Below are positions 19,366 to 58,464 of a DNA stretch of 64,000 nucleotides, in pieces. How positions within the stretch are numbered: the stretch's first letter is position 1; the number at the start of each line of letters is the position of its first letter. Both the position numbers and the translations under genes were made by a program. The notes under the pieces were generated by a model. It saw only the letters and a list, made by a program, of their open reading frames with translations, was not told where the DNA came from and did not search any database. Source of the DNA: an uncultured Chloroflexota bacterium (GTDB taxonomy: Bacteria > Chloroflexota > Dehalococcoidia > GIF9 > AB-539-J10); assembly GCA_903884455.1 (NCBI GenBank), contig CAISEW010000041.1:17335-81334 (forward strand), given 5' to 3'.

Positions 19366-19407
19366 TTTTCCCTCCTTCTTTCTTTACCGTTGTTTACCCT
19401 CTTGTTG

Positions 19408-19558
19408 GTCATTGCGAGCGGAGCGAATGCGGAGCGCGGCAATCTCCTTCCCCCGTAGCCCCTCCGAGATTGCTTCGTCGCCCCGATGAATCGAGGCTCC
19501 TCGCAATGACAAAGGGGAGGGTATTGCTTCGGCTGACGGAGTCAGCCTCGCAATGACA
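19408..19558. repeat. cluster of 3 TGTCATTGCGA..GCAATC palindromic elements
   Basis: Copies at 19408-19446 (+), 19466-19511 (-), 19523-19558 (-). Confidence 0.9.
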
Positions 19559-19589
19559 GGAAGGGACCGTGCCTGGCAATGGCGCTCCT

Positions 19590-21152
19590 TTAGTAGTAGT
19601 AATGTGTTCTTCTCCTTATTACGAAAAAGTAAACCAGGGCGCCGATGAGCACCACTATTGCGACTATGCTGGCAATGAATACCCATAGGGGCAGGAGTCC
19701 AGCATGTAAGGAACGGGCTGCGGTCCAGTTGCCTGCGTTCTCTGCTCTATCTACGGCTTGCACAATCCAGTAGTAGGTGCCATAAGGCAGGGCTTCTGTC
19801 GCATTCAAGGTATAGTTCGTTCCGACTATGTCCGGAACTGAAACTATGGGGTCAGCAAATCCTTCAGTGGTGATGTTGGCACTGGTCGCTATCTGCAGGC
19901 TATAGCGAACTCCACTGGGATCGGATACCGCCGACCATTCAAATGTCGGCCTCACCTTGCCTATGAATCCCACGCGGCTTCCGTCGGCTGGCGATTTGAG
20001 TTCCGGCACAGGTGGAGGGACTGATTCCATGGTGAAGTTGGCGGTGGCGTTGTTCCCGGCAGTATCGCCGGCTGTTACCGGGCGCTCGCCGTGTTGACTT
20101 TCAGGCACGGCAAAACTTGCCTCAAAGTTGCCGTTGTCGTTGGTTTCGGCTGTCGCTTTCTGGCTACCATCGTACTTTATGGACACATCTTCGGTGGCGG
20201 CAAATCCGCGACCGGTGACGGTCAGGTTTGTGCCCACGTGTCCTTCGTCAGGAGACAGCACGATGCCAGGCTCTATCTTGAAGCTGAGTGCAGTGATGGC
20301 GGCTTTTGGAGTCGATTCTCCGTAGGCAGTCACGTTATACGTGCCTTTGGGCATTTCGGGCACCTCGAAGCTTTTTTCCCAGTAACCTTCGTCGTCAGCA
20401 TCAACCCTGATTTCTGTCCCCACTTCCTCTCCTGCAAATAATATCCTGATGTACCTGTCGTTAGCATAAAATCCGTTGCCTGTCATAGTTATGTTGTCGC
20501 CTACGGTGCCCGATGATTTATCCAGGCTTATCCCCGGCGTTACTTCGAAGGTGGCATCCTTGACTTGATAGAAGCTGCTGCTGGCACCCTGGGCGTCTAT
20601 TTTATGGTTTCCCGTGGTGGAAGGAGGAATTTGGAAACTCCGCTGCCAATTGCCCGTGGCATTCGCCGTGATATTCCCTGGTATCGGTGCATAGCCGGTG
20701 CTATTGAGGTAATACCTCAGCTCGATGCCTGTTTCATTCTTGGCAAATCCATGGCCTTGCACGGTAACATTAGTGCCCACAGGACCTTTGGCAGGACTTA
20801 TTGTCAGCCCCGGCTTCACGGTAAAGTTTTCCGTAGCTTGAGGGGTAGTGTCTATATCAGCACGCACTTCGTGTGCGCCTTTGCAGCTTTCGGGAACGGT
20901 GAAGGTGACATTGAAGCTTCCCGTACTGGTGGTCTGGACATCTATCATCCAGTCCCCGGCATAGTAAATATCAACCCACTTACGAGCCGTAAAGTTATAG
21001 CCATAGACGGTAACCTCTGTTCCGGGCACTCCGTCACCGGGGTCGAGCGTGATAGAAGGTCCTATGCCATCGGCTTGTGCAGGCGTAGCCGGCAGGGCCA
21101 TAGCTACAAGGCAAACGATGAAAACAACCAGTAACCGAGATAGCACACGCAT
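19590..21152 (-). CDS. surface protein with Ig-like (IPT/TIG-type) repeats and C-terminal TM anchor
   Basis: Signal peptide (AQA); four G-x-x-G-T-x-V-T-V-x-G-x-x-F repeats; FN3-like GTYYWIVQAVD; TM helix then RRR. Confidence 0.8.
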   Translation of the reverse strand: MRVLSRLLVVFIVCLVAMALPATPAQADGIGPSITLDPGDGVPGTEVTVYGYNFTARKWVDIYYAGDWMIDVQTTSTGSFNVTFTVPESCKGAHEVRADIDTTPQATENFTVKPGLTISPAKGPVGTNVTVQGHGFAKNETGIELRYYLNSTGYAPIPGNITANATGNWQRSFQIPPSTTGNHKIDAQGASSSFYQVKDATFEVTPGISLDKSSGTVGDNITMTGNGFYANDRYIRILFAGEEVGTEIRVDADDEGYWEKSFEVPEMPKGTYNVTAYGESTPKAAITALSFKIEPGIVLSPDEGHVGTNLTVTGRGFAATEDVSIKYDGSQKATAETNDNGNFEASFAVPESQHGERPVTAGDTAGNNATANFTMESVPPPVPELKSPADGSRVGFIGKVRPTFEWSAVSDPSGVRYSLQIATSANITTEGFADPIVSVPDIVGTNYTLNATEALPYGTYYWIVQAVDRAENAGNWTAARSLHAGLLPLWVFIASIVAIVVLIGALVYFFVIRRRTHYYY

Positions 21153-21234
21153 TTAACTCACCTCCCTTTTGCTATTATAAACGAAAATGACCAGAAAAAG
21201 TAAGTAGTCTTGACTATTTTGGGACAAATTTGTT

Positions 21235-21319
21235 GAGATTGCTTCGGCTGATTTCATCAGCCTCGCAATGACAGGAAGGGAATGTCATTGCGAGCACCTG
21301 AAAGGTGCGTGGCAATCCC
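21235..21319. repeat. pair of TGTCATTGCGA..GCAATC elements
   Basis: 21235-21273 (-) and 21283-21319 (+). Confidence 0.9.
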
Positions 21320-21370
21320 CACAGTTAAATTCCAAAATCCAAACTCCAAACAAATCCCTTCAAAATGCAA

Positions 21371-21455
21371 AAATAGCGGTAGTAACAAGAATACAGAATC
21401 CAGTAGGGAAATCTTCTGAATACTGAATTCTGACTACTGGCTACTGACTATTACT
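21371..21455. repeat. heptamer-built palindromic element, inverted copy of 16688-16759
   Basis: Reverse complement shares taatagtcagtag.cagtag and ctactggattctgtattcttgttactacc.ctattt with copy 1. Confidence 0.75.
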
Positions 21456-23013
21456 AGTAGTAGTATCTTCTCCTTATTACCAAAGCGCGAATCAAAGCGC
21501 CGAGAAGCACCGCTATTGCCACTATGATGAGAATGAATGCCCACATAGGCAAGAGTCCAGCACGGAAAGAGTGAGCCGCAGTCCAGCCTCTTTCGTTCCC
21601 TGCGCCGTCTACGGCTTGCACAATCCAGTAGTAAGTGCCATCAGGCAGGGCATCTGTCGCATTCAGGGTGTAGTTCGTCCCGACTATGTCCGCAACTGAA
21701 ACTATGGGGTGAGCGAATTCTCCGGTGGTGGTGACGTTGGCACTGGTTGCTATCTGCAGGCTATAGTGAACTCCACTGTCATCGGATACTGCTGACCAAC
21801 TGAACGTCGGCGTCACCTTGCCCATGAGTCCCGCCCAACCTCCGTTGGATGGTGAAATGAGTGTTGGTATGTCCGGAGGATGTGATTCCATGATGAGGAT
21901 AGCAGTGGCATTATTCCCCCCAACATCCGTGGCTATTATTTGGCGCTCACCATGTGGGCTCTCAGGCACGACAAAGATTGCCTCAAAGCTGCCTGTGTCG
22001 TTGGTCGTGGCTGTTGCTTTCTGGTTACCATCGTACATTATGACCACATCTTTGTTGGCGGCGAATCCATGGCCCGTGACGGTCAAGTTCATGCCCACGT
22101 ATCCTTCGTCGGGGGGCAACACGATGTCCGGCTCTATCTTGAAGCTGAGCTCGCTGATATCTTCTTTCTTAGTCCATTCTCCCTCGGCGGCCACGCTATA
22201 CGTGCCTGCGGGCATTTCGGGCACCTCGAAGCTTCCCTCCCAGTTACCTTGAGAATCGGCTTTGATGCCTGTGACCACTGCCTCCCCATCAAACAATATC
22301 TGGATGTTCTTTTCATAAGCCACAAATCTGCTGCCCGTCATGGTTATTGCATCGCCCATGCTGCCCCATGGTTTATCTAGGCTTACCTCTGACGTTACTC
22401 TAAAAATGGCATCTTGGACCTCATAAAACTGGCTCTCAGCACCCTGGGCATCTATCTTATGTTCTCCCTTGGTGGAGGGGGGAATTGAGAAACTCGTCTC
22501 CCAACTGCCCGTGGCATTGGCTACTATACGCCTTTGTATCGTTTGGTAGTTGTCATTGAGGTAATACATCAACTCGATGCCCTGTTCATTCTGGGCAAAG
22601 CCCTGTCCTGTCACGGTAACATTAGTGCCCACAGGACCTTCGGCAAGACTTATTGTCAACCCCGGCTTCACGGCGAAGTAAGTATCTACTCTGACAGTCC
22701 CTATGTAGGTCCCTACCACAGCGAGTAATTTGTGGTCTCCCTTACAGCTTTCAGGGATGGTGAGGTGGATTGTGAAATCTCCACTGCCATCGGTCTGGCC
22801 TGTGGCTACGTGGGTCTCGTCATAATAGATGTCCACATACTTGCCGTCATCAAAGTACTGGCCAGTGACGATGATCTCTGTTCCGGGGGCTCCTGAGCCA
22901 GGGGAGAGCTGGATGGAAGGTCCTCCACACTGAGCCTGTGCGGGCACAGCTGGCAGGGTCATAGTGACAAGGCAGACGACGAGAACGATGACCAATCGAG
23001 ATAGTAAGCGCAT
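21454..23013 (-). CDS. tandem paralogue of the Ig-repeat surface protein
   Basis: Same architecture and long near-identical stretches (e.g. DIVGTNYTLNAT, YYWIVQAVD) as 19590..21152. Confidence 0.8.
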   Translation of the reverse strand: MRLLSRLVIVLVVCLVTMTLPAVPAQAQCGGPSIQLSPGSGAPGTEIIVTGQYFDDGKYVDIYYDETHVATGQTDGSGDFTIHLTIPESCKGDHKLLAVVGTYIGTVRVDTYFAVKPGLTISLAEGPVGTNVTVTGQGFAQNEQGIELMYYLNDNYQTIQRRIVANATGSWETSFSIPPSTKGEHKIDAQGAESQFYEVQDAIFRVTSEVSLDKPWGSMGDAITMTGSRFVAYEKNIQILFDGEAVVTGIKADSQGNWEGSFEVPEMPAGTYSVAAEGEWTKKEDISELSFKIEPDIVLPPDEGYVGMNLTVTGHGFAANKDVVIMYDGNQKATATTNDTGSFEAIFVVPESPHGERQIIATDVGGNNATAILIMESHPPDIPTLISPSNGGWAGLMGKVTPTFSWSAVSDDSGVHYSLQIATSANVTTTGEFAHPIVSVADIVGTNYTLNATDALPDGTYYWIVQAVDGAGNERGWTAAHSFRAGLLPMWAFILIIVAIAVLLGALIRALVIRRRYYY

Positions 23014-23093
23014 TTGACTATTCTTTCGTTATTATAACCGAAAAGTATACCAGAAAGTAAAGCGGGCTACCCCTGCCACTATGCTTTTCTATA

Positions 23094-23182
23094 TGTCATT
23101 GCGAGTCCCGATTTATCGGGACGTGGCAATCCCTGCCCCTCCGAGATTGCTTCGGCTGACTAAAGTCAGCCTCGCAATGACA
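23094..23182. repeat. pair of TGTCATTGCGA..GCAATC elements
   Basis: 23094-23132 (+) and 23143-23182 (-). Confidence 0.9.
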
Positions 23183-23209
23183 AATGGGAATACACTGAGC
23201 ATTTGTGGA

Positions 23210-23241
23210 AAAAGGGAGGGGCGGCTTTCGCCGCCCCTCTT
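23210..23241 (-). terminator. putative intrinsic terminator of the S-layer gene
   Basis: GAGGGGCGG stem with short loop; CCTTTT follows on the minus strand. Confidence 0.6.
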
Positions 23242-23290
23242 GGAAATCACCTTTACCTCTCCCTCGAAGAGAGGGTTAGGTGGGGTGTGC

Positions 23291-26767: not shown

Positions 26768-27206
26768 TATTTCCTCCTTTATAGGTATCCAACTTATCTT
26801 CACTCTCGCCCGAGGTCGACCCCTCAGGGCTCGAGTCATTGGAAACGTTTTTTCAGTAAACCTAGTTTTAAGCCTGCCTCATTTCAGGCTGCCCTTTTTG
26901 AGATTGCGGAGCTTGTTCCGAGTGAAACAAGGAATCTCGCTCCTCGCAATAGCTTCTTGCCCGGGCCAGGCATTGTTCTCTTCCCCTCGACTCCTCGCAA
27001 TGGCGATTCGCTTCGGGACTTTGCCATAGGCGTCACCTCCTTTCCATTTTATTGAGTAATGCCATTCTGAGGAGCCCCGATTCATCGGAGCTGGCTCAGA
27101 ATGACCGGCAAATGTCATCTAACAATATTCAATTATTAAAGTTCCAACAAAATCAAATTTCTCGCCAAAAGCCATAGTAATAGGCTTTAGGCCTACCTAA
27201 CCTTCT

Positions 27207-27301
27207 ACTTTAAACCTATATATCTATTTTGTCAATAGGTGAATTAAGAAATTTGCCAAAATAGCTTAGGTTTATTATAACCCCCAGCTTTCTTTTGTCA
27301 A
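27207..27301 (-). promoter_or_regulatory. two tandem near-consensus sigma70 promoters for the S-layer gene
   Basis: TTGACA(27235-27230)-17-TAAAGT(27212-27207) and TTGACA(27301-27296)-16-TATAAT(27279-27274). Confidence 0.7.
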
Positions 27302-27413
27302 TATGCCTCATATAGCGAGGTATAAGTGAGGCAGGGACAATCCCCCTCCTGTCATTGCGAGGCTGACTTCGTCAGCCGAAGCAATCTCGGGTCGGGATGG
27401 TTGAGGCTAACAG

Positions 27414-27459
27414 GACAAAAATTCCTTGCCCTTTTAGAACAAAGGTGCTAATTTATACT
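27414..27459 (+). promoter_or_regulatory. promoter with LexA-like box, upstream of the virion operon
   Basis: GACAAAA-N5-TTGCCC; AGAAC-AAAG-GTGCT at 27436-27449; TATACT at 27454; same spacing as 16137-16177. Confidence 0.65.
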
Positions 27460-27464
27460 CTATT

Positions 27465-27848
27465 ATGGAAAATGGATTGCTCTGGGATTTGTTGCCCGAG
27501 GAATTCCCCTACGAAGATAAAGGCTGTGAGCTCTTTTCCTCCTGTCTTAACTGCCCCTTTCCTGATTGTCTTGAAGAGGAGCCCTGGGGGAAGGAGAGAT
27601 TCTTAAAGCGCAGGCGAGCCGGGAGAATGCTGGAGTTGAAGCGGGAAGGGAAAAGCGTTAAGGAGATTGCCCGCATATTTGAGGTGAGCCCGAGAACGGT
27701 ACAGAGATGGTTGAAGGCGGTGGAAGCAGCTACCCCCTCTGTCGTTGCGAGAAGCCGAGATTCCTCGTTTCACTCGGAACCTGCTCCGCAATCCCATGGG
27801 GCTGTTGACGATGGAGATTGCCACGCACCTTTCAGGTGCTCGCAATGA
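27465..27848 (+). CDS. Cys-rich HTH regulator (sigma70 region 4-like HTH); C-terminus extended by repeat elements
   Basis: C-x5-CxxCP-x3-C, then GKSVKEIARIFEVSPRTVQRWL; residues after about 27740 and the stop codon come from palindromic elements. Confidence 0.75.
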   Translation: MENGLLWDLLPEEFPYEDKGCELFSSCLNCPFPDCLEEEPWGKERFLKRRRAGRMLELKREGKSVKEIARIFEVSPRTVQRWLKAVEAATPSVVARSRDSSFHSEPAPQSHGAVDDGDCHAPFRCSQ

Positions 27849-27927
27849 CACTCCCTTCATGTCGTTGCGAGGCTGATTTCGTCAGCCGAAGCAATCTTGT
27901 GGAGGACAGCTAAAGGAGGCTTAAGAG

Positions 27928-29454
27928 ATGACTGATTTTACCCCATCCCAACTAGCCCGCATGGACACCCAACGCCTGGCTAATTACCGTGCTAACCTGG
28001 ACTTTTACCAGGGCAATCACTGGCCCACGCAGTCACGTCACCGCCAGCTCGTCTTTAATTACGCCAAGGTCTCCATTGACAAGGTCACCAGCTTCCTTAT
28101 GCCGGGGCTGGGCTTTGCCTGCTACCCCAGCGGCGCCCCCTTGTCATTGCGAGGAGCGCAGCGACGAAGCAATCTCGAAAGTGAAGAGGCTCGGGTGAGA
28201 AAGGCCGAGCAGCTCCTTCGCCAGGTCTATGAGCAAAACAACCTCCAGCAGCTTGATTACGAGACGGAGATTGACACCGCCATCTTGGGCGACGGTTGCT
28301 ATAAGGTCATCTGGGATACTGGCGAGAAGCGAGTCCGTATCACCGCCCCTGATGTCTCAGGCATCTATGCCTGGTGGCTGGGAGACGATGCGTCACGAGT
28401 GTGGAGAGTCGCTTCACGCTACACCCTCACCCAGGACGAAATCCAGATGCTTTATGGTGATGTCATTGCGAGCACAGCGAAGCAATCTCAAGGGATTGCC
28501 ACGTCGCCCCGATTCATCGGAGCTCCTCGCAATGACACCCCTCTGTCATTGCGAGGCACGCCAGTGCCGAAGCAATCCCAAGGAAAGGACAGAGTCGTGG
28601 TAACCGAGCTCTGGACGGCTAAGGACTTTGAGCTTTACCTGGATAACGACCTTATACAGTCCAAGCCCAACCCCTACGGCTTCATCCCCTTTATTATCTT
28701 CCCCAACATCAAGCAGCCCAAGAAGTTCTGGGGAGAGTCGGACATTCCCATCCTTATGCAGCCTCAGCGGGAGCTTAATAGAGCCCTGAGCCAGTTATCC
28801 CGCATCCTGGAGCTTTCTGGCAATCCCATCGCCGTTCTCGAAAACATCGCCTCAGCCGAGGACATCAAGGTCCAGCCCGGCGCCCTGTGGACGATACCGG
28901 AGGACGCTAAGGCATATCTTCTGGACTTACTGCAAGGCGGTGGAGTCAGGCTTCATGTCGATTACATCGAGTTGCTATACCGCTCGTTGCACGACATCTC
29001 CGAGCTTCCAAAGGCCGCCTGGGGAGGCGCTGAGAGAGACCTCTCAGGCTCAGCTATGAGGATTGAGCTCGGTAGCCTTATCCAGAAGGTAGTCAGGAAA
29101 CGCACCATCAGGATGAACGTGTATCACCAGCGAAACGACATGATATTGAAGCTCGCTGAGAGATATATGGACGAGAACTTTGAGGGAGTAAACCACAGAG
29201 TAGTCTGGGGCCCTATCTTGCCACAGGATGCAGATAGGCAAGCCCAGACCGAGCAGCTTTTGGTCCAGGCGGGAGTCCACTCACGAAGAACCGCTATAGA
29301 CGAAATGGGAATCCAGGACCCCGATGAGGAGTTTAACAGGTGGCTAGAGGAGAGGGAGAAAATCCTGGAAATGAACAGGGAGTTTAGGGCAGCGTCCACT
29401 CGTGGCGGAGCGAGAGAGAGAGCGGTAGCCGCAGAGATGGAAGTGCCTGAGTAA
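27928..29454 (+). CDS. phage portal protein (SPP1 gp6-like) with in-frame repeat insertions
   Basis: LDFYQGNHW, LVFNYAK, ILGDG, NPYGFIPF, WGESD, LSGSA, VWGPILPQD; AAGGAGG RBS. Confidence 0.85.
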   Translation: MTDFTPSQLARMDTQRLANYRANLDFYQGNHWPTQSRHRQLVFNYAKVSIDKVTSFLMPGLGFACYPSGAPLSLRGAQRRSNLESEEARVRKAEQLLRQVYEQNNLQQLDYETEIDTAILGDGCYKVIWDTGEKRVRITAPDVSGIYAWWLGDDASRVWRVASRYTLTQDEIQMLYGDVIASTAKQSQGIATSPRFIGAPRNDTPLSLRGTPVPKQSQGKDRVVVTELWTAKDFELYLDNDLIQSKPNPYGFIPFIIFPNIKQPKKFWGESDIPILMQPQRELNRALSQLSRILELSGNPIAVLENIASAEDIKVQPGALWTIPEDAKAYLLDLLQGGGVRLHVDYIELLYRSLHDISELPKAAWGGAERDLSGSAMRIELGSLIQKVVRKRTIRMNVYHQRNDMILKLAERYMDENFEGVNHRVVWGPILPQDADRQAQTEQLLVQAGVHSRRTAIDEMGIQDPDEEFNRWLEEREKILEMNREFRAASTRGGARERAVAAEMEVPE

Positions 29455-29530
29455 TAACTCAACCCCTTGTCATTGCGAGCCCTGAGCTCGGCAAAGGGCG
29501 AAGCAATCTCAAGAGGAATAGGAGAAATGT

Positions 29531-30043
29531 ATGGAAAACGAAACTCAAGAAACCTTGGAAACTCAAGAACCCGGGAATACTGCCCCAGACCCTGAGGACT
29601 TATCAATCATCAAGGCCGAGCTTGAGGAGGGGAGGAAGGCGAAGGCCGAAATCGAGGCAGCGTTAGCCGACAGAGCTAAACGTATCACCGAGCTGGAGGC
29701 CTCGCTAAATGTAGTCTCTCAGGCCAGCGAGGCGGCGGCAGCCGAGCTCGCCGCAGTGAAGGGCGCTAGCTCGAAGGCCGTCTCTAAATACCTCGAGGCC
29801 GCCAGAGCTCTTAATTCCACCATCCCCAAAGACGTCATCTCTGGCCAGACTATTGAGGAGATAGACGCCTCTGTGGAGAAGGCGAAGGCCATCGCCAATG
29901 CCGTCAGGGCTAACCTCGAAGCTCAGGCCAAAGAGGCTAAGGTCCCGGCAGGAGCACCCACCAGAAGTGAGATATCCCTTGAGGGACTTTCCCCCCGGGA
30001 GAAGATCGCCGCTGGAATAATGTCATTGCGAGGAACGCAGTGA
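29531..30043 (+). CDS. putative capsid scaffolding protein
   Basis: Acidic Ala/Glu-rich coiled coil ending LSPREKIAAG; position between portal and capsid; last codons and stop come from a repeat element. Confidence 0.7.
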   Translation: MENETQETLETQEPGNTAPDPEDLSIIKAELEEGRKAKAEIEAALADRAKRITELEASLNVVSQASEAAAAELAAVKGASSKAVSKYLEAARALNSTIPKDVISGQTIEEIDASVEKAKAIANAVRANLEAQAKEAKVPAGAPTRSEISLEGLSPREKIAAGIMSLRGTQ

Positions 30044-30074
30044 CGAAGCAAACTCAAAAAGGAGGAACAAGCTA

Positions 30075-30305
30075 ATGCAAGACATCATCGAAATGGGAGT
30101 TTGGGCTATTATTGGAATAGCCATTCTCAGTGTGCTAGCCACGCTGTCCATCCACTTCCTGTCGCAGCGTTCGCAGCAGCACATGAACGAAACCTCCCAG
30201 TCTAACCTCTACAACCTACACTCGTTGGGCATCCAGGCCATTATCGGAGCTAACGAGATGAAGATTGTGGACGATAGCCTGCAAGACACCGAAAAGAAAA
30301 GCTAA
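30075..30305 (+). CDS. small single-TM protein between scaffold and capsid genes
   Basis: AAGGAGG RBS; N-terminal hydrophobic helix; flanked by duplicated AAAAAGGAGGAAC(A/T)AGCTA. Confidence 0.55.
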   Translation: MQDIIEMGVWAIIGIAILSVLATLSIHFLSQRSQQHMNETSQSNLYNLHSLGIQAIIGANEMKIVDDSLQDTEKKS

Positions 30306-30325: not shown

Positions 30326-31398
30326 ATGACAATATCTTTAGCAGAAGCCAGTAAACTCTCGAGCGATATCCTGCTTAAAGGTATCATCGAGACAATAATC
30401 AAGGACAGCCCCATCTTAGAGAGGCTGCCCTTCATTCAAATCGTCGGCAATAGCCTTAAATACAACAGGGAGAAGACCTTGCCGACCGTTGGCTGGTATG
30501 CCCCGGTAACCGGTACCTGGACTCAGTCCGAGCCGGCTTTTGAGCAGTGCTCGGCCAGCCTGGGCGTCCTCGGCGGAGACGCCGACGTGGACAACTTTCT
30601 TAAGGCCACCCGGAGCAACATCCAGGACCTCGAGGCCGCCGTCATCGAGCAGAAGGCCAAGGCTCTCAGGCACGAGTTCGAGAACACCTTCCTTAACGGA
30701 GACTCGGGCGTCGACGCCAACCAGCCCGATGGCCTCTATAAGACCATGAAAGGCACCGCCTGGGCAGCCAGCACCGCCTATACATTAGGCCAATTTGTCG
30801 TGCCCACGGCCGGCCTCGAAAACGGATTCCGTTACGAGTGCACCACCGCCGGCACCTCAGGATCCTCAGCGCCTACCTGGCCCACCACGGAAGGGGCCAC
30901 GGTAGCCGACAACACCGCCGTCTGGACCTGCCGTTACGGCAGCCATCAGGGCTCAGGAGCCAACGGAGCCACCCTTTCCTTGACCAGCCTGGATAAGCTT
31001 ATTGACCTGGTCAGAGGCGGCAAGCCCGACTTACTCTTAATGAGCCGCCGGTCCCGCAGGAAGATTGTGACCCTGGCCAGAGCTGCGGGCACCAATCTAC
31101 TTATCGGAGAGGGCGCGCTCGGCCAGGTCGTTGAGTACTTTAACGGCATCCCTGTGGCCATCTCCGACTGGGTAAAGGATAACTACACCGTCGGCACGTC
31201 GTCCGACTGCTCTGCCATCTTCGCCTTCCAGATGGGTGAGGGGGGAGTCTGTGGACTTACAGCCCTGAGATGATTCAGGTTGAGCGTCTTGGCTCACTGG
31301 AGACTAAGGACGCCACCAGAACCAGGGTCAAGTGGTATGTATCACTGGCTCTCTTTTCCGTAGTGAAGGCTGCCATGCTGACGGGGGTGAGAGACTAA
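30326..31398 (+). CDS. HK97-fold major capsid protein (one apparent missing base at about 31260)
   Basis: IIETIIKDSPILERLPF, YNREKTLP, LGGDADVDNFL, FNGIPVAISDW; adding one C at CTTACAGC gives GLTSPEMIQVERLGSLETKDATRTRVKWYVSLALFSVVKAAMLTGVRD* ending at 31398. Confidence 0.85.
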
Positions 31399-31404
31399 CA
31401 GAAA

Positions 31405-33943: not shown

Positions 33944-36107
33944 ATGAAAACCTTAACCTCCACTCTGCTCGCAAGCCAGAAGAAAGCCAACCACCTCCCC
34001 TACGTCGAGGCTAAAGTCTATGACTATGAGGCGGGCATCAAGAGGCTATCCTGGACACGCATTTATGAAGGCAGCGAGCCCGACAACCATCACGGCATTG
34101 CCTTCGACGGCCAGGGCTCTATGCACCGCATCAGGAGCCAGGGCAACAATCTTTATTATCAGAAGCAGACGCTTCCTTTTGGTGTCCCGTCATCCTTCCC
34201 CCTTATCTTCCCCGTCTCCCTGGTCGACGGCCCAGCCCTTGACCAGTGGACGTTAATAGCGGAGGACTGCTACGGTCCCTGCGCTATCGCTGCCTATGGC
34301 AGCAAGGTCTATATCTTCTACAAACCCAACGAACCCAACAAACTCAACAAACTCTATAGTCATGACTACGGCCAGTCCTGGAATAATGCTCAGCTCGCAG
34401 CCTACGATGAGGTCGTTTCCCTGGCGGCGTGTTGGTGGAGGACAGGGAACAATGTCGTCTGCTTCGCTCTCAAAGGGAGCTATCCAGTCAAGATCAACGG
34501 CATAGTCTTAGACACCTCCGACCAGAGCACCAGCCAGCACGAATGGTACGACGCCACCCACCCTTTGTTGGACACCTATGGCATCGGAGCTACCTTTAAT
34601 CCTTTCTGGCCTGCTATCGAGATCATCTTCGCTGGCAGGGAGTCTGATTCCCCCTATAATCACTATGACCTTTTCCGTACCAAGTTTAGTTCATCATACA
34701 ACTTCCTGGCCCTGGAAAGCTTTCTCATGGCCCCCGATGGAGAGGGCATCACCTATGAATACCCCGACTGCCATTTACCCGCCGTAGCCTCCGGCGAAGG
34801 CGGGCCGGACTACGAGACTAACCGCATTGTCGCCGTCGAGAAGTTCATGGGGACGACCGCCTACACCCGCCCTATTACTTGCCACGTGGTAAAAGGAACA
34901 TACTGGTCCGATACCACTTTTACTGAGCCCAAGCCCCTCCCTGTCATTGCGAGCGGAGCGTGGCAATCTCCCTACGGGCTCAGAATCGCCAGCACCGCCG
35001 ATTATTGGTGGCTCTCCGAAGCCCGACGGAGTCTGGAGAGCCACCCGCCCCGCCGACTCGCCCCTCGACTTGACTGGCGATATTGTCTCCGTCACCTTAA
35101 CCCAATCACCCCAACAAACTCAAAGAACTCAAGGAACTCTCATTATCGAGCTCAACAACTCCAAGGGACAGTATGCCAACCCTGGCAGCGGAGTCCTTGC
35201 TTCTCTTCGCTTCCGCAGTGAAGTCGTCCTTAAGCTCGGCTATAAGACCTCTGTCGGGAACGAAGCTGTCGAAGTTGGGACTTACTGGATTGATTCCTGG
35301 GAGTACCAGTCCGTGTCATTGCGAGGCGAAAGCCGAAGCAATCTCAGCACTTTCACCCTCACCTGCCTGGACGGCTGGGGGCTCATGAACCGCTGGTCAG
35401 CTCGCTACCAGATGCGCTGGAACAAGGACGCCGTCAACCCCAAGTCCGTCTGGCAAATCCTCTATCAACTCTTAGCCAGGGTCGGCATCAAGCTCACCAA
35501 CACCCCACCCAAACCCCAGTCCTCCGCCATCAACAACTTCTATCCCGACTTCACCATTAACCCTGGCACCAAGGGGGATGCTGCTATCAGGAGGCTGCTT
35601 TCCTTCGTCCCCGACCAGCTCGTCTTCAGAGGCCAGGAAGCCTTCACCAAGAACCCTTTACCCGCCGAAGCCCCCTCTTACTCCTACGGCGTAGGCGCGG
35701 CCGCCCACCCCATCATCTCCGGCCGATACCAGGACGCCGTCACCGCTTCCCGGGCCCGTGCCATCGGCCAGGACGAAGATGCCAACCGCATCGTTAGAGA
35801 CGCCTTTGATTGGGATTTACTGAAGCTTGACATTGATATATTAGAACAAGACTATGACCCTAACCTTAGCGAGGAGGCCAGGGCCCAGGAGAGAGCCGAT
35901 GCCCTCCTAAGGGAGGCGTCATTGCGAGCGGAGCGTGGCAATCTCGTAGTCCCCACCAACGTCGGCCAAGAGCTCTTAGATGTCGTGGGGTTCACCGACG
36001 CCCGCTGCGGCGTCGACCAGGAGAACTACCGGGTCCAGGGGATTCGAACCCTCTACGACCGCCGTCAGGGACGATACGAGCAGGCTCTAACCTTGGGAGC
36101 ACCGTGA
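33944..36107 (+). CDS. large tail/baseplate-hub-like protein (one apparent extra base at about 35016)
   Basis: N-terminal propeller with Asp-box YSHDYGQSW; C-terminal hub-like region (LKLGY, ELLDVV..YRVQGI..Y..TLGAP); removing one C gives WWLSKPDGVWRA; three in-frame repeat inserts. Confidence 0.6.
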
Positions 36108-39083: not shown

Positions 39084-39196
39084 TGTCGTTGCGAGGAGCG
39101 TAGCGACGAAGCAATCTCGTGGAGCCAATGAGATTGCCACACTTCGCTAGCAACGACAATATAACCGTACCTCCGCCCTTAGGGGCGGAGGTACGG
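39084..39196. repeat. two TGTC(A/G)TTGC elements plus a 14-bp-stem GC hairpin
   Basis: 39084-39118 (+), 39130-39158 (-); ccgtacctccgccc-ttag-gggcggaggtacgg at 39165-39196. Confidence 0.75.
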
Positions 39197-39204
39197 GGGA
39201 AAAT

Positions 39205-40350
39205 TCAATTGAGATCCCAGCCGCCGACATTGCACTGACCATTGGAGTTCCATCCCACGGCGACCACAGCGCCGTTGGACTTAAGCCCCACTGTGTGGAA
39301 GACGCCTGTAGCGACCTGGACGATGTCCGTCCAGTTGCCGACATCATACTGCCCGAAGGCGTTAGATCCCACGGCGACCACGGTGCCGTTGGCACAAAGC
39401 CCCACCGTGTACAAGCCGCCTGCGGCGACCTGGACAATGCTCGTCCAGTTGCCGACATCACACTGCCCGGAGGTATTATCTCCCACGGCGACCACGGTGC
39501 CATCGAGCTTAAGCCCCACCGTGTGACCGCCACCTGCGGCGACCTGGATGATGTTCGTCCAGTTGCCGACATCACACTGCCCGTAGGTGTCATTTCCCAC
39601 GGCGACCACAGTGTCGTCGAGCTTAAGCCCCACCGTGTGACCGCCGCCTGCGGCGGCCTGGACGATGCGCGTCCAGTTGCCGACGTCGCACTGCCCGGAG
39701 TCGTTCAATCCCACGGCGACCACGGTGCCGTCAGGCTTAAGCCCCACTGTGTCTGAGCCGCCCGCAGCGACCTGGATGATGTCCGTCCAGTCGCTGACAT
39801 TACACTGCCCGTCCCAGTTCAATCCCACGGCGACCACAGTGACGTCGGATTTAAGCCCCACCGTGTGATACCTGCCGGCGGCGACCTGGACGATGTGCGC
39901 CCAGCCGCTGACATCCAACTGATGATAGTAATTGCTCCCCATGGCGACCACGGTGCCGTCGGACTTAAGCCCCACTGTGTGCTTCTCGCCTGCAGCGAGG
40001 CCATATTGCTTGACAAAGTTGGCTGTTACAGAGTAGTTGTGGCCCATCGTGATGGTAGTTGTGGCGGCATTGACATTGGCAATCGTGCCTGCGTCACCAG
40101 TCCAGCTGGCAAACAGATAGCCGTTATCAGGAGTCGCCACCAGGTGGACCACCGTTCCGTTAGAATAGGTAAAATTCCCCCCTCCAGGGGTGGTTACCAA
40201 CCCTCCAGCGGTACTGGCGATAGTGAGGGTATAATAAGAACGAGTAGTCTGAGCACAGCTTACCATCCCGCCAATTAAGGCTACCGCAATCAAAAGGATG
40301 CTAACTCTGGCCACGTAACAGTGTTTCCTCAAGCTAAGTATTATCCTCAT
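39205..40350 (-). CDS. lipoprotein with InlB B-repeat-like domain and about 7 RCC1-like repeats
   Basis: Lipobox MVSC; W-T-G-D B-repeat; 37-aa (111-bp) repeats QVAAGGxHTVGLKxDGTVVAVG. Confidence 0.85.
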   Translation of the reverse strand: MRIILSLRKHCYVARVSILLIAVALIGGMVSCAQTTRSYYTLTIASTAGGLVTTPGGGNFTYSNGTVVHLVATPDNGYLFASWTGDAGTIANVNAATTTITMGHNYSVTANFVKQYGLAAGEKHTVGLKSDGTVVAMGSNYYHQLDVSGWAHIVQVAAGRYHTVGLKSDVTVVAVGLNWDGQCNVSDWTDIIQVAAGGSDTVGLKPDGTVVAVGLNDSGQCDVGNWTRIVQAAAGGGHTVGLKLDDTVVAVGNDTYGQCDVGNWTNIIQVAAGGGHTVGLKLDGTVVAVGDNTSGQCDVGNWTSIVQVAAGGLYTVGLCANGTVVAVGSNAFGQYDVGNWTDIVQVATGVFHTVGLKSNGAVVAVGWNSNGQCNVGGWDLN

Positions 40351-40472
40351 TTTTCACCTCTAGATTCTTGTAGTTGCCTGATTCGGCGCAATAGAGTGCT
40401 CTTGCTTATGCCAACTATCTGGCAAACTTCAGCAGTTCCATAACAGATTCGGCTGTTTATTTTTACACGCAT
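40347..40472 (-). pseudogene. short MerR/excisionase-like HTH remnant
   Basis: MRVKINSRICYGTAEVCQIVGISKSTLLR; only 41 aa. Confidence 0.4.
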
Positions 40473-40882
40473 ATAGAACTCCCTCACAAGACTAATTGAA
40501 TATAGTCTAAGATCTGTTCGCTTCTCCGTCAATCACCCATTAGTAACCGTACTTTCGTAAGGGAAGGCTTGTCCTCTCCCGATTGGTAGGAGCACACAAG
40601 GAGTTCTCTGTAGAAAATCTCATTACCACAGTACCAATCAAGCCTACTATAAATTAGGTATTATTTCCCCAGAATAATCCGGTTTGCCCAGACTAGGGGT
40701 CAATGAAGTTTGAGGATAGCTTGAGGCTTTATCGGAGGATTGAGCAACTCTTGTCATTGTGGGGCACTTTTCTCTTGTCATTGCGAGGAGCGAAGCCCCG
40801 AAGCAATCTCAATTATGAGACTGGACACTGGATTAGGATGATAATATAGTAATGTGGTTGCCAAAATCGGGGGTGAGGCAAT

Positions 40883-56017: not shown

Positions 56018-58408
56018 ATGTCAAAAGCAGCAAGACAGTCCCTCAAATCAGCTTCTATTAGCGTCCGGGGCATCGTTCAGGGCGTGGGCTTCAGGCCTTT
56101 TGTCTACGGACTAGCTGTTAAACACAACCTTAAGGGATGGGTTTACAACACTTCAGAGGATGTCAAGATTGAGGTAGAAGGTGCAGCAGAGGCTATTAAG
56201 AAATTTGAGCGGGAACTCGAGACAAAAGCCCCACCGCTGGCTCACATCGAGAACATAACTATCGAGTATCACCCACCCCACGGTTATAAAAATTTTGAAA
56301 TTCGACAGAGCCAGGCACAGGCAGGGAAATATCAGCTTATCTCTCCGGATGTCGCTACCTGCCAGGCTTGCCTTGGTGAGTTGCTAAATTCTGAAGACCG
56401 CCGCCACCGCTATCCCTTTACCAACTGCACCAATTGCGGCCCACGCTTTACCATAATTGAAGATATGCCCTATGACCGCCCCAAGACAACCATGCGCTAC
56501 TTCCAGATGTGCTCCCAATGCCAGGCGGAATATGATAATCCCTTGGATCGCCGCTTCCATGCTCAACCCAACGCCTGCCCGAAATGCGGTCCCCAGGTCC
56601 AGTTAGTTGATAACCGGGGCAAGCTGGTAACCAAGTCGAATCCTATTGCCGCTGCCAGTCAGCTCCTTAAAGAAGGGAAAATCGTGGCTATTAAGGGCTT
56701 AGGGGGTTTTCTCCTGGCTTGCGATGCCACGAACGATACCGCAGTTAAAACGCTGCGGCAGAGGAAGAAGCGCTCCTCCAAGCCCTTTGCCATAATGGTA
56801 ACCGATGTAGACGAAGCTAAGAGGCATTGCTATGTCTCGCCAGAGGAGGAAAATTTACTTACCTCACCTCAAAGCCCCATCGTACTCATGAAGTGGCGGG
56901 AGGACTCATCTGGGTCTCGAGAGGTAGCGCCCAATTTACAATTCTTAGGGGTTATGCTGCCGTATACCCCGCTTCACCACATACTGCTCAGGGACACGGG
57001 CCGGCCTTTAGTAATGACCAGCGGCAATCTCAGTGAAGAGCCTATCGCCAGAGACAACGATGAAGCCTTATGGAGGCTTTCCGGTATTGCCGATTACTTT
57101 CTAATCCATAATCGGGATATCTATTCCCGCTACGATGATAGCGTGGCCATAGTAGAAAGGGGCACAAGCCAGCTTATAAGGCGAGCGCGTAGCTACGCTC
57201 CCTATCCCATCCGCCTGCCGTTTAAAACCAGGCAGGTGCTTGGTTGCGGCGCCGAGGAGAAAAATACGTTCTGCCTGACCAAAGATAACTATGCCTTCCT
57301 ATCGCAGCATATCGGCGATATGGAGAACATGGAAACTCTGGAGCATTTTGACAGCACTATATCCCTGTATAAAAGGCTTTTCCATGTAGAGCCTGAAATC
57401 ATTGCCCATGACCTCCACCCTGATTATCTGGCCACCAAATATGCCCGGGAGTTAGGCGAGTCCGGTATAAAGCTTATTCCTGTGCAGCACCACCATGCCC
57501 ATATCGCCAGTTGCCTGGCTGATAATGGGCTGGAGTCCCCGGTTATCGGCGTGGCCTTCGATGGCACGGGGATGGGTGTGGATGGGAATATCTGGGGAGG
57601 GGAATTCCTGGTCGCCGACTACCGTAATTTTCGCAGAGCAGGACATCTGGAATATTTGCCTTTGCCTGGAGGAGCCGCAGCTATAAAAAGACCTTACCGC
57701 ACCGCCATCGGCTATATTCTCACTCTATTAGGGGAAAATGCCCTCAACGCTGTCATTGCGACCCTGAACGAAGTGAAGGGGAAGCAATCCCAGTTGGCTT
57801 CTATCGGGCAAATGAGCGAAGTTGAAATAGAGGTTATCAAGCGCCAGATCGAAAGAAGGATAAATTCACCACTTAGCTCGAGCATGGGACGCCTTTTTGA
57901 TGCCATATCAGCCCTGCTGGGCATAAGGGGCGAAATAGATTACGAAGGACAGGCGGCGGTGGAACTGGAGATGGCTGCCCTCTCCTCTGTCATTGCGAGG
58001 CCTGTCCCGAGCGAAGCGAGGGAACTCGACGAAGCAATCTCCGGTAATAATGAAAGTTACCCATACCACATAGTACAAGATAAGGGAATAAGAATCGTGC
58101 GCCTGAAGGACCTGCTCGCAGCCGTAATAGAAGACTTACATCAGGGTATATCAAAGGGGAGGATATCAGTCAAATTCCACAATACCGTAGCCCGGATGAT
58201 AAACGAGATGTGCCACTTGATAGCCGACGAAACAGGCATCAGCCAGGTAGCATTAAGCGGCGGCGTATTCCAGAATCGTTTGCTGTTGAGTAAAACAGTC
58301 AGCTTACTGGAAAGCAGCGGTTTCCAGGTTTTTACCCACAGGCAGGTGCCCTGTAATGACGGCGGCATCTCCCTGGGTCAAGCCGTTATTGCCAATTTCG
58401 TCGTATAA
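56018..58408 (+). CDS. hypF: [NiFe]-hydrogenase maturation carbamoyltransferase with two in-frame repeat inserts
   Basis: GIVQGVGFRPF, CTNCGPR, RRFHAQPNACP, QHHHAH, SSMGRLFD, NDGGISLGQ. Confidence 0.95.
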   Translation: MSKAARQSLKSASISVRGIVQGVGFRPFVYGLAVKHNLKGWVYNTSEDVKIEVEGAAEAIKKFERELETKAPPLAHIENITIEYHPPHGYKNFEIRQSQAQAGKYQLISPDVATCQACLGELLNSEDRRHRYPFTNCTNCGPRFTIIEDMPYDRPKTTMRYFQMCSQCQAEYDNPLDRRFHAQPNACPKCGPQVQLVDNRGKLVTKSNPIAAASQLLKEGKIVAIKGLGGFLLACDATNDTAVKTLRQRKKRSSKPFAIMVTDVDEAKRHCYVSPEEENLLTSPQSPIVLMKWREDSSGSREVAPNLQFLGVMLPYTPLHHILLRDTGRPLVMTSGNLSEEPIARDNDEALWRLSGIADYFLIHNRDIYSRYDDSVAIVERGTSQLIRRARSYAPYPIRLPFKTRQVLGCGAEEKNTFCLTKDNYAFLSQHIGDMENMETLEHFDSTISLYKRLFHVEPEIIAHDLHPDYLATKYARELGESGIKLIPVQHHHAHIASCLADNGLESPVIGVAFDGTGMGVDGNIWGGEFLVADYRNFRRAGHLEYLPLPGGAAAIKRPYRTAIGYILTLLGENALNAVIATLNEVKGKQSQLASIGQMSEVEIEVIKRQIERRINSPLSSSMGRLFDAISALLGIRGEIDYEGQAAVELEMAALSSVIARPVPSEARELDEAISGNNESYPYHIVQDKGIRIVRLKDLLAAVIEDLHQGISKGRISVKFHNTVARMINEMCHLIADETGISQVALSGGVFQNRLLLSKTVSLLESSGFQVFTHRQVPCNDGGISLGQAVIANFVV

Positions 58409-58425: not shown

Positions 58426-58464
58426 TGTCATTGCGAGGCTGCCAAAGCCAGCCGAAGCAATCTC
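58426..58464. repeat. TGTCATTGCGA..GCAATC element between convergent genes
   Basis: tgtcattgcgaggctgccaaagccagccgaagcaatctc. Confidence 0.9.

What the first reader, a model, noticed from the sequence alone, without database searches (positions are those of the whole stretch)
28142..28579. Palindromic elements inserted in-frame inside the portal gene
Seen: one element reads as LSLRGAQRRSNL (28142-28176). A triplet of elements (+,-,+; 28461-28579) reads as VIASTAKQSQGIATSPRFIGAPRNDTPLSLRGTPVPKQSQ. The 508-aa frame stays open. Established: Rickettsia palindromic elements (RPEs) add peptide segments in the same way. Inference: frame preservation across four insertions suggests the portal was under selection while the elements spread, which argues against a long-dead prophage.
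Basis: partly seen in the sequence, partly recalled or inferred. Interest (0 to 1): 0.75.

Follow-up and report, generated by a model that had tools for sequence, protein, structure and literature searches.

The report
Hairpin repeats inserted inside portal gene
Four copies of a small hairpin-forming DNA repeat that litters this Dehalococcoidia genome sit in frame in two surface loops of a phage-type portal gene, adding 50 amino acids, which is a new example of the kind of event known from Rickettsia and from repeats inside genes of other bacteria.

Summary
ORF 27928..29454 (508 aa) is an SPP1-type portal. It carries four copies of a 26-43-nt palindromic repeat: one at site 1, and a +,-,+ triplet at site 2.

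- **Insertions, not ancestral loops.** The two sites add 36 nt and 114 nt, which is exactly the 50 codons separating this protein from its 458-aa orthologues. Those orthologues have empty sites in both DNA and protein.
- **Confined to hot spots.** In 121 close homologues, internal inserts of 5 aa or more occur only at these two loops and two minor sites. Site 2 shows alleles with one, two, three or more elements.
- **Loop positions.** AlphaFold puts both sites in short connecting loops. These are well ordered in the insert-free protein and low in confidence in the window's protein.
- **The repeat family.** Copies share a constant 5-bp outer stem and a covarying inner hairpin. They are mostly intergenic, often in inverted pairs, and also lie in frame in HypF and in a ~720-aa phage-cluster gene. 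They lack the GTAG/CGTC tags of classical REPs and match no Rfam family.
- **Selection.** Portal dN/dS is 0.08-0.17, so the gene was under selection while elements accumulated.
- **Caveat.** In this window the terminase, capsid and ~720-aa genes each carry a single-base frame break. "Not a dead prophage" is therefore only partly supported.

Verdict: a new member of a known kind, of moderate interest.

The parts
27928..29454 (+). SPP1-type portal gene, 508 aa, with AAGGAGG 9-15 nt upstream of the ATG
   Evidence: ORF. Pfam PF05133. phrog_64. AlphaFold pLDDT 86.9. Foldseek PDB matches listed are all phage portal or portal-containing tail/connector structures. Shine-Dalgarno motif read.
28134..28176 (+). 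Element 1 at site 1 (pyrimidine leader plus 32-nt core 28143-28174). Read as (AP)LSLRGAQRRSNL, residues ~70-83.
   Evidence: Covariance model E 3.5e-4. Site empty in L003-L010. Net +36 nt.
28462..28487 (+). Element 2, first of the site-2 triplet (26-nt short type). Read as VIASTAKQS.
   Evidence: Covariance model E 8.5e-5. Single-element alleles of this site exist in homologues.
28494..28536 (-). Element 3, middle of the triplet (43-nt type, opposite orientation). Read as IATSPRFIGAPRND.
   Evidence: Covariance model E 1e-3.
28537..28579 (+). Element 4, third of the triplet (leader plus 33-nt core 28545-28577). Read as (TP)LSLRGTPVPKQS.
   Evidence: Covariance model E 2.4e-8, but this copy was in the training set. 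Absent in L002, which has only elements 2 and 3.
27741..27896 (.). Three copies between the HTH gene and the portal: a longer sister type at about 27741-27795 (+), then 27816-27849 (-) and 27861-27896 (+). The first two are read through as a C-terminal extension of ORF 27465..27848.
   Evidence: The (-,+) pair is absent in L002. HTH orthologues are 92-123 aa against 127 aa here.
29469..29508 (+). Copy just after the portal stop codon
30022..30053 (+). Copy forming the last codons and stop region of the scaffold-like ORF 29531..30043
   Evidence: Covariance model E 0.045.
34943..35943 (+). Three in-frame copies in the ~720-aa gene of the cluster: 34943-34968, 35315-35343 and 35918-35943
   Evidence: The copy at 35315 is absent from the 90-97% identical relative L013, and L013 has another copy where the window has none.
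57752..58039 (+). Two in-frame copies in the housekeeping gene hypF (57752-57789 and 57989-58039)
   Evidence: Both fall in gaps of the alignment to the solved HypF 3vth.
19408..23181 (.). Intergenic clusters of copies: 19408-19557 (three), 21237-21317 (inverted pair) and 23095-23181 (inverted pair)
27351..27386 (+). Intergenic copy upstream of the HTH gene (36-nt type)
39085..40808 (.). Intergenic copies 39085-39116 (+), 39132-39157 (-) and 40777-40808 (+)
58427..58462 (+). Intergenic copy just after hypF

Best explanation
The four segments are copies of a family of small hairpin repeats that resemble REPs and miniature mobile elements.

**Anatomy.** The core is 26-43 nt and is often preceded by a CCCYYYT-like leader. 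Copies share two end boxes, GTCATTGCGAG and CG(A/T)(A/G)GCAATC. These form a constant 5-bp outer stem (ATTGC/GCAAT) and a small internal loop. They enclose an inner hairpin whose sequence differs between subfamilies while its pairing is kept.

**Where they live.** The family is abundant in this Dehalococcoidia genome and its relatives. It is mainly intergenic and often occurs as inverted pairs.

**How they came to be in genes (inferred).**
- Copies spread by a DNA-level process whose enzyme is not identified here.
- Copies that landed in genes survived only where the net length was a multiple of three, where the frame read had no stop (five of six frames are mostly open), and where the protein tolerates extra residues.

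**In the portal.**
- The tolerant places are two short connecting loops of the N-terminal (wing) half, plus two minor sites.
- Site 2 grew by accretion from one element to two and then three.
- The inserted residues are translated as floppy surface loops and probably have no function of their own.

**Shown:** repeat-family membership, hairpin covariation, empty versus filled sites, restriction to hot spots, loop location in the models, and purifying selection on the portal.

**Inferred:** the mode of spread, translation of the inserts, and their neutrality.
For: **Repeat family**
- The core motif occurs 26 times against 0.95 expected.
- A strict pattern finds 68 copies in 214,814 bases of window plus 13 loci.
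- The covariance model gives 25 matches in the window and 59 in the 13 loci.

**Structure**
- The outer stem forms in the minimum-energy fold of 41 of 45 distinct copies. Mean z-score against shuffles is -2.6.
- On 20 aligned copies (17 distinct), 96.5% of cells pair, against 77.6% in shuffles. All 7 inner pairs change on both sides. 0 of 500 shuffles reach the covariation score, and slid controls pair 17.5-54%.

**Mainly intergenic**
- 16 of 27 copies lie in the 11.4% of the window outside listed ORFs (binomial p 3e-9).

**Insertion polarity**
- Site 1 is 114 nt here against 78 nt in the seven empty-site orthologues L003-L007, L009 and L010 (L008 is also 78 nt, making eight).
- Site 2 is 204 nt here against 90 nt in six of the seven empty-site orthologues (99 nt in L005).
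- Together that is 50 codons, which equals 508 minus 458.
- In 44 distant representatives (26-61% identical), 0-2 of the 12 site-1 positions are filled in all 44. At most 13 of the 40 site-2 positions are filled in 42 of 44.
- The 94%-identical L003 has site 1 empty but carries the same triplet at site 2.

**Hot spots in 121 close homologues**
- Internal inserts of 5 aa or more occur only after reference positions 36 (5 of 121), 68-75 (44), 169 (72) and 448-452 (5).
- Two more homologues have C-terminal extensions.
- Eighteen differ at the N-terminal start.
- Site-2 alleles have lengths of 8, 12, 20-28 and 38 aa, up to 56 aa, built from recognisable element peptides.

**Loop positions**
- In the insert-free P0050 model the sites are a 4-residue loop (68-71) and a 7-residue loop (165-171), with pLDDT above 90.
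- In the window's model, residues 187-221 are coil with pLDDT about 50. The block 71-80 has pLDDT 75. All other secondary-structure elements keep their order.

**Same elements in frame elsewhere**
- HypF: both copies fall in gaps against PDB 3vth.
- The ~720-aa gene: presence differs from L013.

**Selection and frames**
- dN/dS is 0.082-0.168 in 10 of 10 comparisons.
- Stop-free counts per frame are 53, 47, 46, 44, 7 and 55 of 59 copies.
Against: - No transposase or other mobilising enzyme was found. Pfam on 56 window ORFs shows only a Xer-like integrase at 43460-44314.
- No target-site duplication or base-exact boundary could be read from filled and empty sites. At site 1 the element replaces about 24-27 nt rather than simply adding to them.
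- Translation of the inserts is not shown.
- The covariation alignment used 20 of the 68 copies, picked for clean 33-37-nt architecture, so its pair counts lean towards the structure.
- Presence or absence at the two sites needs 25 and 28 changes on a FastTree tree of 121 homologues, against shuffled means of 38 and 36. This could reflect recombination between alleles or tree error as much as repeated insertion.
Confidence: 0.85

Rival explanations
1. The portal, although still open, is part of a cluster that is already dead in this genome. On this reading the open frame records past selection, not present function.
For: Three neighbouring genes carry single-base frame breaks relative to intact orthologues:
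- the terminase-like gene near 17115-17125, compared with L009;
- the major capsid gene near 31260, giving 315 aa against 357 aa in L013;
- the ~720-aa gene at 35018, which is split in two here.

The 40 or so housekeeping ORFs gave full-length Pfam matches.
Against: - Single-base indels are also a common assembly error, and no reads were available to check them.
- Housekeeping genes were not compared base by base with orthologues.
- Portals bearing the same triplet sit beside intact capsid and ~700-aa genes in L001, and in the genome of L003 and L013.
- The portal itself has no break and shows dN/dS of 0.17 even against its closest relative.
Confidence: 0.3
2. The inserts are selected, not merely tolerated. 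Element accretion would then diversify exposed loops of virion proteins, for example to alter recognition by portal-sensing host immunity or contacts inside the capsid.
For: - Two loops show extreme length variation while the rest of the protein is 74-96% identical.
- A second virion-cluster protein (~720 aa) is also polymorphic for elements between 90-97% identical relatives.
- A portal bound by the Avs4 immune sensor is among the fold matches (8dgf), so portals can be immune targets.
Against: - The same elements sit in HypF, a housekeeping enzyme.
- Most copies are intergenic.
- The inserts have low model confidence and no conserved residues beyond those fixed by the DNA boxes.
- No test of positive selection was possible.
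Confidence: 0.08
3. The segments are ancestral portal loops, and the intergenic repeats are fragments derived from them. On this reading the empty sites are deletions.
For: On the tree of close homologues the states change many times, so losses must also occur.
Against: - Distant portals lack the segments: 44 of 44 at site 1 and 42 of 44 at site 2.
- The repeats occur in unrelated genes and mostly between genes.
- Their inner stems covary as hairpins, which protein coding does not explain.
- The same element is read in at least three different frames in different places.
Confidence: 0.03
4. The insertions are an assembly artefact, with repeats wrongly joined into the gene, or they are removed from the mRNA or bypassed in translation.
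For: - Repeats do break assemblies here. Contig L003 ends inside the portal and L013 begins inside it.
Against: - The same inserts occur in independent assemblies: L001, L002, L003 and dozens of database proteins from several sources.
- All inserts are multiples of three and free of stops, which removal or bypass would not require.
- No intron or intein features are present, and Rfam gives no match.
Confidence: 0.03

Closest known systems
Intragenic REPs (GTAG- and CGTC-tagged repetitive extragenic palindromes; Di Nocera et al. 2013, PMC3733652; abstract and found passages read)
   Same: - Short palindromic stem-loops of 20-40 bp.
- High copy number, mostly between genes.
- Often arranged as inverted dimers or groups.
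- A minority lie inside known genes as singles, dimers or groups encoding about 20-30 aa. The authors argue these sit in linkers or loops.
   Different: - There is no GTAG or CGTC tag on the family as a whole. Only the 32- and 43-nt subtypes show CGTC on the opposite strand.
- The outer stem is constant and the inner hairpin is variable.
- No RAYT transposase is seen in the window.
- The host phylum is Chloroflexota (Dehalococcoidia).
- The paper's supplementary lists of intragenic REPs were not opened.
Rickettsia palindromic elements (RPEs; Ogata et al. 2000, 2002, as summarised in PMC10969869 and PMC3733652; found passages read)
   Same: - Palindromic selfish repeats inserted in frame in many unrelated genes.
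- They add peptide segments thought to be compatible with the fold.
   Different: - RPEs are described as about 150 bp with a conserved encoded peptide. Here the cores are 26-43 nt (8-14 aa each) and build up by accretion.
- The sequences are unrelated.
- The host is a free-living anaerobe lineage, not an obligate intracellular one.
Bacterial MITEs with in-frame fusions (ERIC, BOX, QMITE1 of Coxiella, Anabaena MITEs; review PMC10969869, found passages read)
   Same: - Non-autonomous small repeats.
- They can create in-frame fusions with host ORFs.
   Different: - MITEs are 70-300 bp with 15-30-bp terminal inverted repeats and target-site duplications.
- Here the elements are far shorter, the perfect inverted core is 5 bp, and no duplication could be read.
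SPP1 gp6-type portal proteins (PF05133; solved portals such as 7z4w, 8vd8, 9vyf)
   Same: - Same fold and domain order.
- Foldseek probability 1.00 and TM-score 0.5-0.7.
- Profile hits to PDB portals.
   Different: - About 20-23% identity to the nearest cultured-phage portals.
- Two loops are enlarged by repeat insertions.

Membership tests
REP superfamilies (GTAG/CGTC-tagged, PMC3733652) | Short (20-40 bp) palindromic stem-loop repeat | tested here: met
   Cores are 26-43 nt. The outer stem forms in 41 of 45 distinct copies. Covariation supports the inner stem.
REP superfamilies (GTAG/CGTC-tagged, PMC3733652) | Many copies, predominantly extragenic, frequently as inverted dimers | tested here: met
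   16 of 27 window copies lie in the 11.4% non-coding part. Inverted pairs occur at 21237/21284, 23095/23145, 27816/27861, 28494/28545 and 39085/39132.
REP superfamilies (GTAG/CGTC-tagged, PMC3733652) | GTAG or CGTC tetranucleotide tag at one end of the palindrome | tested here: not met
   The flanks are GTCATTGCGAG and CG(A/T)(A/G)GCAATC in all copies. Only subtypes whose inner part ends in ..CGACG(A/T) show CGTC on the other strand, roughly 17 of 68 by reading the list.
REP superfamilies (GTAG/CGTC-tagged, PMC3733652) | Association with a RAYT (Y1 HUH) transposase gene in the genome | not testable with these tools
   None of the 56 window ORFs scanned with Pfam is one.
Rickettsia palindromic elements | In-frame insertion into functional ORFs | tested here: met
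   Seen in the portal, HypF and the ~720-aa gene. Portal dN/dS is 0.08-0.17.
Rickettsia palindromic elements | About 100-150-bp element of a named RPE family, in Rickettsia | tested here: not met
   Cores are 26-43 nt. All 12 loci with a named taxon are Dehalococcoidia. No sequence comparison with RPEs was run.
MITE | 70-300 bp, terminal inverted repeats of 15-30 bp, target-site duplication | tested here: not met
   The size and the 5-bp perfect inverted core do not fit. No duplication is readable at filled versus empty sites.
SPP1 gp6-like portal (PF05133) | Pfam match above the gathering score, and a portal fold | tested here: met
   67.1 bits against a cut-off of 25.5. Every listed Foldseek PDB match is a phage portal or portal-containing tail/connector structure.
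Known RNA families (Rfam 15) | Match to any curated covariance model | tested here: not met
   At gathering threshold only a tRNA at 53739-53812 matches. At E <= 1 over 19300-30100 there are four chance-level hits, none on an element.

The most novel reading that the evidence does not exclude
These repeats would be an undescribed superfamily of hairpin elements with a constant base and a variable tip, active in Dehalococcoidia. Copies would prefer to land next to or within earlier copies. A first tolerated insertion in a gene would then become a landing pad that grows by accretion. In the portal and the ~720-aa protein of a vertically kept phage-derived particle (possibly like a gene transfer agent), this growth would be used to diversify exposed loops. 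The evidence does not exclude this reading. It shows accretion series, hot spots, fast turnover between close relatives and long-term conservation of the cluster. It does not show targeting, function of the cluster or benefit of the inserts.
Probability: 0.1. Interest if true: 0.75.

Novelty: new member of a known kind. Interest (0 to 1): 0.5.

Why it matters
- **Wider reach of a known process.** Protein-lengthening by selfish palindromic repeats is best known from Rickettsia. This case extends it to uncultured free-living Dehalococcoidia and to a virion protein.
- **A natural tolerance map.** More than a hundred natural alleles show which portal loops tolerate 8-56 extra residues. That is useful for engineering tags into portals.
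- **Practical for annotation.** These repeats break assemblies, since contigs end inside the gene. They also lengthen ORFs, create C-terminal extensions and can seed spurious ORFs.
- **A well-defined motif to follow up.** The family has a constant outer stem and a covarying inner hairpin. That gives a clear target in the search for the enzyme that moves it.

Tried and rejected
- **Element peptides in other proteins.** A search with the site-2 triplet (residues 178-221) against proteins longer than 889 aa scored nothing among 25 candidates. The same DNA read in another frame (ORF 28229..28603, residues 78-120) gave one hit at E 1.4e-3. The taxonomic spread of the family therefore stays unknown. 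My recollection that similar repeat-derived peptides are common in metagenomic proteins of other anaerobic phyla comes from no call.
- **Plasmid collection.** A 60-nt element query gave only one chance-level hit at E 0.4.
- **Cultured phages.** The best portal matches are only 20-23% identical.
- **Rfam.** Both thresholds gave nothing on the elements.
- **Literature.** Searches for the motif, and for such repeats in Dehalococcoidia or Chloroflexi, found no description. The 12 papers containing the 11-mer are, from the 10 listed titles, unrelated; none was opened.
- **Target preference.** The empty site 2 resembles the fused element ends. It is the best match in the gene in 3 of 7 empty orthologues, scoring 15, 13 and 15 of 20. 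Codon-shuffled genes reach those scores in 4, 74 and 5 of 100 trials. This is inconclusive.
- **Target-site duplications.** None could be read.
- **Not run.** No complex prediction was run.
- **Closed or spent.** A DNA-pattern census of the element could not be made.
Full report
**1. What is there**

ORF 27928..29454 is open for 508 codons. A strong Shine-Dalgarno motif (AAGGAGG) lies 9-15 nt upstream of the ATG.

The ORF encodes an SPP1-type portal:
- Pfam PF05133 at E 1.9e-18.
- phrog_64 at E 2.6e-26.
- A profile of the family hits solved portals.
- The AlphaFold model (pLDDT 86.9, pTM 0.80) matches only phage portal structures (alone or within tail/connector assemblies) among the listed Foldseek PDB hits, at probability 1.00.

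- LSLRGAQRRSNL is encoded by 28141-28176.
- The 40-residue string is encoded by 28462-28581.

The DNA under them consists of four copies of one repeat:
- 28143-28174 (+)
- 28462-28487 (+)
- 28494-28536 (-)
- 28545-28577 (+)

**2. The repeat family**

Copy number:
- The core GTCATTGCGAG (up to 1 mismatch) occurs 26 times in the window. Shuffles give 0.95.
- A stricter two-box pattern finds 68 copies in the 214,814 bases of window plus 13 related loci.
- A covariance model finds 25 matches (E <= 1) in the window and 59 in the loci.

Architecture:
- Copies share GTCATTGCGAG at one end and CG(A/T)(A/G)GCAATC at the other.
- A pyrimidine-rich leader often precedes them.
- The middle is a hairpin whose sequence differs between subtypes. 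Core lengths run from 26 to 43 nt.

Evidence for the fold:
- In minimum-energy folds, the ATTGC/GCAAT outer stem forms in 41 of 45 distinct copies. Mean z-score against shuffles is -2.6, and 27 of 45 are below -2.
- I aligned 20 copies, 17 of them distinct. They were chosen from the 68 for a clean 33-37-nt architecture, so the counts lean towards the structure.
- In that alignment 96.5% of cells pair, against 77.6% in shuffles.
- All 7 inner pairs show changes on both sides.
- 0 of 500 shuffles reach the covariation score, and slid controls pair only 17.5-54%.

Distribution:
- The family is mainly intergenic. 16 of 27 window copies lie in the 11.4% of the window outside listed ORFs (p 3e-9).
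- Inverted pairs are common.
- No Rfam family matches the elements.

**3. The portal copies are insertions**

- The 120 best database homologues are 74-96% identical but 441-533 aa long.
- Forms of 458 aa have gaps at exactly the two places.
- In DNA from 10 related loci, site 1 is 114 nt in the window against 78 nt in eight loci (L003-L010).
- Site 2 is 204 nt in the window against 90 nt in six loci (99 nt in L005).
- That is +36 and +114 nt, or 50 codons, which equals 508 minus 458.
- L003 is 94% identical in DNA. It has site 1 empty but carries the same triplet at site 2. L002 has only the first two elements of the triplet.
- L001 and L002 carry at site 1 a decayed copy read in a third frame (VASDSEAI). 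The model detects it only weakly, at E 0.15.
- Among 44 distant representatives (26-61% identical), all 44 fill 0-2 of the 12 site-1 positions. 42 of 44 fill at most 13 of the 40 site-2 positions.
- The short loops are therefore ancestral.
- The orthologues that share the residues also share the palindromic DNA.

**4. Hot spots and accretion**

In 121 close homologues, inserts of 5 aa or more occur only at these places:

| Reference position (P0050) | Homologues with an insert |
|---|---|
| after 36 | 5 of 121 |
| after 68-75 | 44 of 121 |
| after 169 | 72 of 121 |
| after 448-452 | 5 of 121 |
| C-terminal extension | 2 of 121 |
| N-terminal start differs | 18 of 121 |

- Site 2 shows a series of alleles:
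  - one element (8 or 12 aa);
  - two elements (20-28 aa);
  - three elements (38 aa);
  - up to 56 aa.
- Site 2 also carries inserts from other repeat families.
- I built a FastTree tree from 371 insert-free columns. On it, presence or absence needs 25 changes at site 2 and 28 at site 1. Shuffled labels need 38 and 36 on average, with minima of 31 and 29.
- The states therefore carry some phylogenetic signal but turn over often. Repeated gain and loss, allele recombination or tree error could each contribute.

**5. Where the sites sit in the protein**

- In the model of the insert-free P0050 (pLDDT 88.9), the sites are a 4-residue loop (68-71, between a strand and a helix) and a 7-residue loop (165-171, between a helix and a strand). 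Both have pLDDT above 90.
- In the window's model the same elements follow in the same order.
- There, residues 187-221 are coil with pLDDT about 50, and the block 71-80 drops to pLDDT 75.
- Both sites lie in the N-terminal half, before the stem-clip-stem-crown part. By comparison with solved portals this is the wing. That assignment is an inference, and no oligomer model was made.

**6. Not only the portal**

- **HypF.** The same elements lie in frame in hypF at 57752 and 57989. Both fall in gaps against the solved HypF 3vth.
- **The ~720-aa gene of the cluster.** It carries three in-frame copies. The one at 35315 is absent from L013, and L013 has another copy where the window has none.
- **C-terminal tails.** Elements form C-terminal extensions of the HTH and scaffold-like ORFs.

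**7. Selection**

- Portal dN/dS against 10 orthologues is 0.082-0.168.
- Element copies are stop-free in five of six frames in 44-55 of 59 cases. In the sixth frame only 7 of 59 are stop-free.
- Overall 252 of 354 combinations (71%) are stop-free.
- A random insertion would therefore keep the frame open about one time in four. Three or four independent ones would do so about one time in 75 to 300.

**8. What qualifies that inference**

Three genes of the cluster carry single-base frame breaks in this window relative to intact orthologues:
- the terminase-like gene;
- the capsid gene, 315 aa here against 357 aa;
- the ~720-aa gene.

These may be real decay or assembly error, and I could not check reads.

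The cluster's setting also matters:
- The whole arrangement runs from a CetZ-like tubulin gene through the portal to a metallo-beta-lactamase-fold gene. It is syntenic in L001, L004, L005 and L006.
- There is no integrase next to the cluster.
- The cluster therefore looks like a long-kept phage-derived module rather than a recent prophage.
- In L009 the terminase directly abuts the portal. The genome of L008 and L009 has two copies of the portal.

**9. Comparison with what is known**

- In-frame palindromic repeats are known from Rickettsia (RPEs).
- They are also known from GTAG/CGTC REPs inside genes of several species, often as dimers or groups encoding 20-30 aa (PMC3733652 and PMC10969869; passages read).
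- The present family works like these.
- It fails the tag test of the REP superfamilies and the size, inverted-repeat and duplication tests of MITEs. It is not an RPE by size or host.
- I found no description of it. However, most subscription journals and the papers' supplements were not searched.

**10. Verdict**

- This is a new member of a known kind. It is of moderate interest, chiefly for the clean natural series of insertion alleles and for the well-defined hairpin family.

Noticed in passing
window 17001-18161 (near 17115-17125), 30326-31400 (near 31260), 33944-36107 (35018): There are single-base frame breaks in the terminase-like gene, the major capsid gene and the ~720-aa gene, relative to intact orthologues in L009 and L013. 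No such break was noticed in housekeeping ORFs, but those were not compared base by base.
   Followed up: partly
window 18187-26839 (minus strand): Four genes lie between the terminase-like gene and the portal: a CetZ-like tubulin (PF00091 plus PF21011), two TIG/Ig-domain proteins and a 1182-aa protein with no Pfam match. In L009 the terminase abuts the portal directly. A CetZ-type tubulin in a bacterium next to phage-like genes is unusual.
   Followed up: no
window 18857-39091; L001, L004, L005, L006: The whole phage-like cluster and both flanks are syntenic in four other species-level Dehalococcoidia genomes. The head genes are intact there and no integrase is adjacent. This may be a domesticated, gene-transfer-agent-like module.
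   Followed up: partly
L004, L007 and L010 portal codon ~167 (empty site 2): The empty site (for example GCCATTGAGAAGAAGCAGGC) resembles the two end boxes of the element placed side by side. It is the best such match in the gene in 3 of 7 empty orthologues. Codon-shuffled controls reach those scores in 4, 74 and 5 of 100 trials.
   Followed up: yes
window 19468-19510, 28143-28174, 28494-28536, 39085-39116 and similar copies in loci: The 32- and 43-nt subtypes show CGTC directly before the inner palindrome when read on the opposite strand, followed by a 3-nt tail. This resembles the CGTC-tagged REPs that include Rickettsia RPE-4 and RPE-6. Other subtypes lack it.
   Followed up: partly
window 1-64000: Copies are very unevenly placed. 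24 of 27 lie between 19.4 and 40.8 kb, and 3 lie at 57.7-58.5 kb. None lie in 1-19 kb or 41-57 kb, although intergenic spacers exist there.
   Followed up: no
window 26912-27105 and 27741-27795; portal homologues: Sister or other repeat families are present. They include a GTCATTCTGAG...CTCAGAATG type with a compensated outer stem (27079-27105) and a longer GTCGTTGCGAG...CGCAATC type. In homologues there are in-frame inserts reading PARQ(G/A)LAG, VILSEAKNL, GDKPRPY and PTNSTNS.
   Followed up: no
L003 (contig end inside the portal) and L013 (contig start inside the portal): In the closest relative the assembly breaks inside the portal gene. The repeats are a possible cause, but this was not checked.
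   Followed up: no
window 4791-5729: The release-factor gene (PCRF plus RF-1 domains) starts at profile position 29. This is as expected if it is prfB with its usual programmed +1 frameshift, but that was not checked.
   Followed up: no
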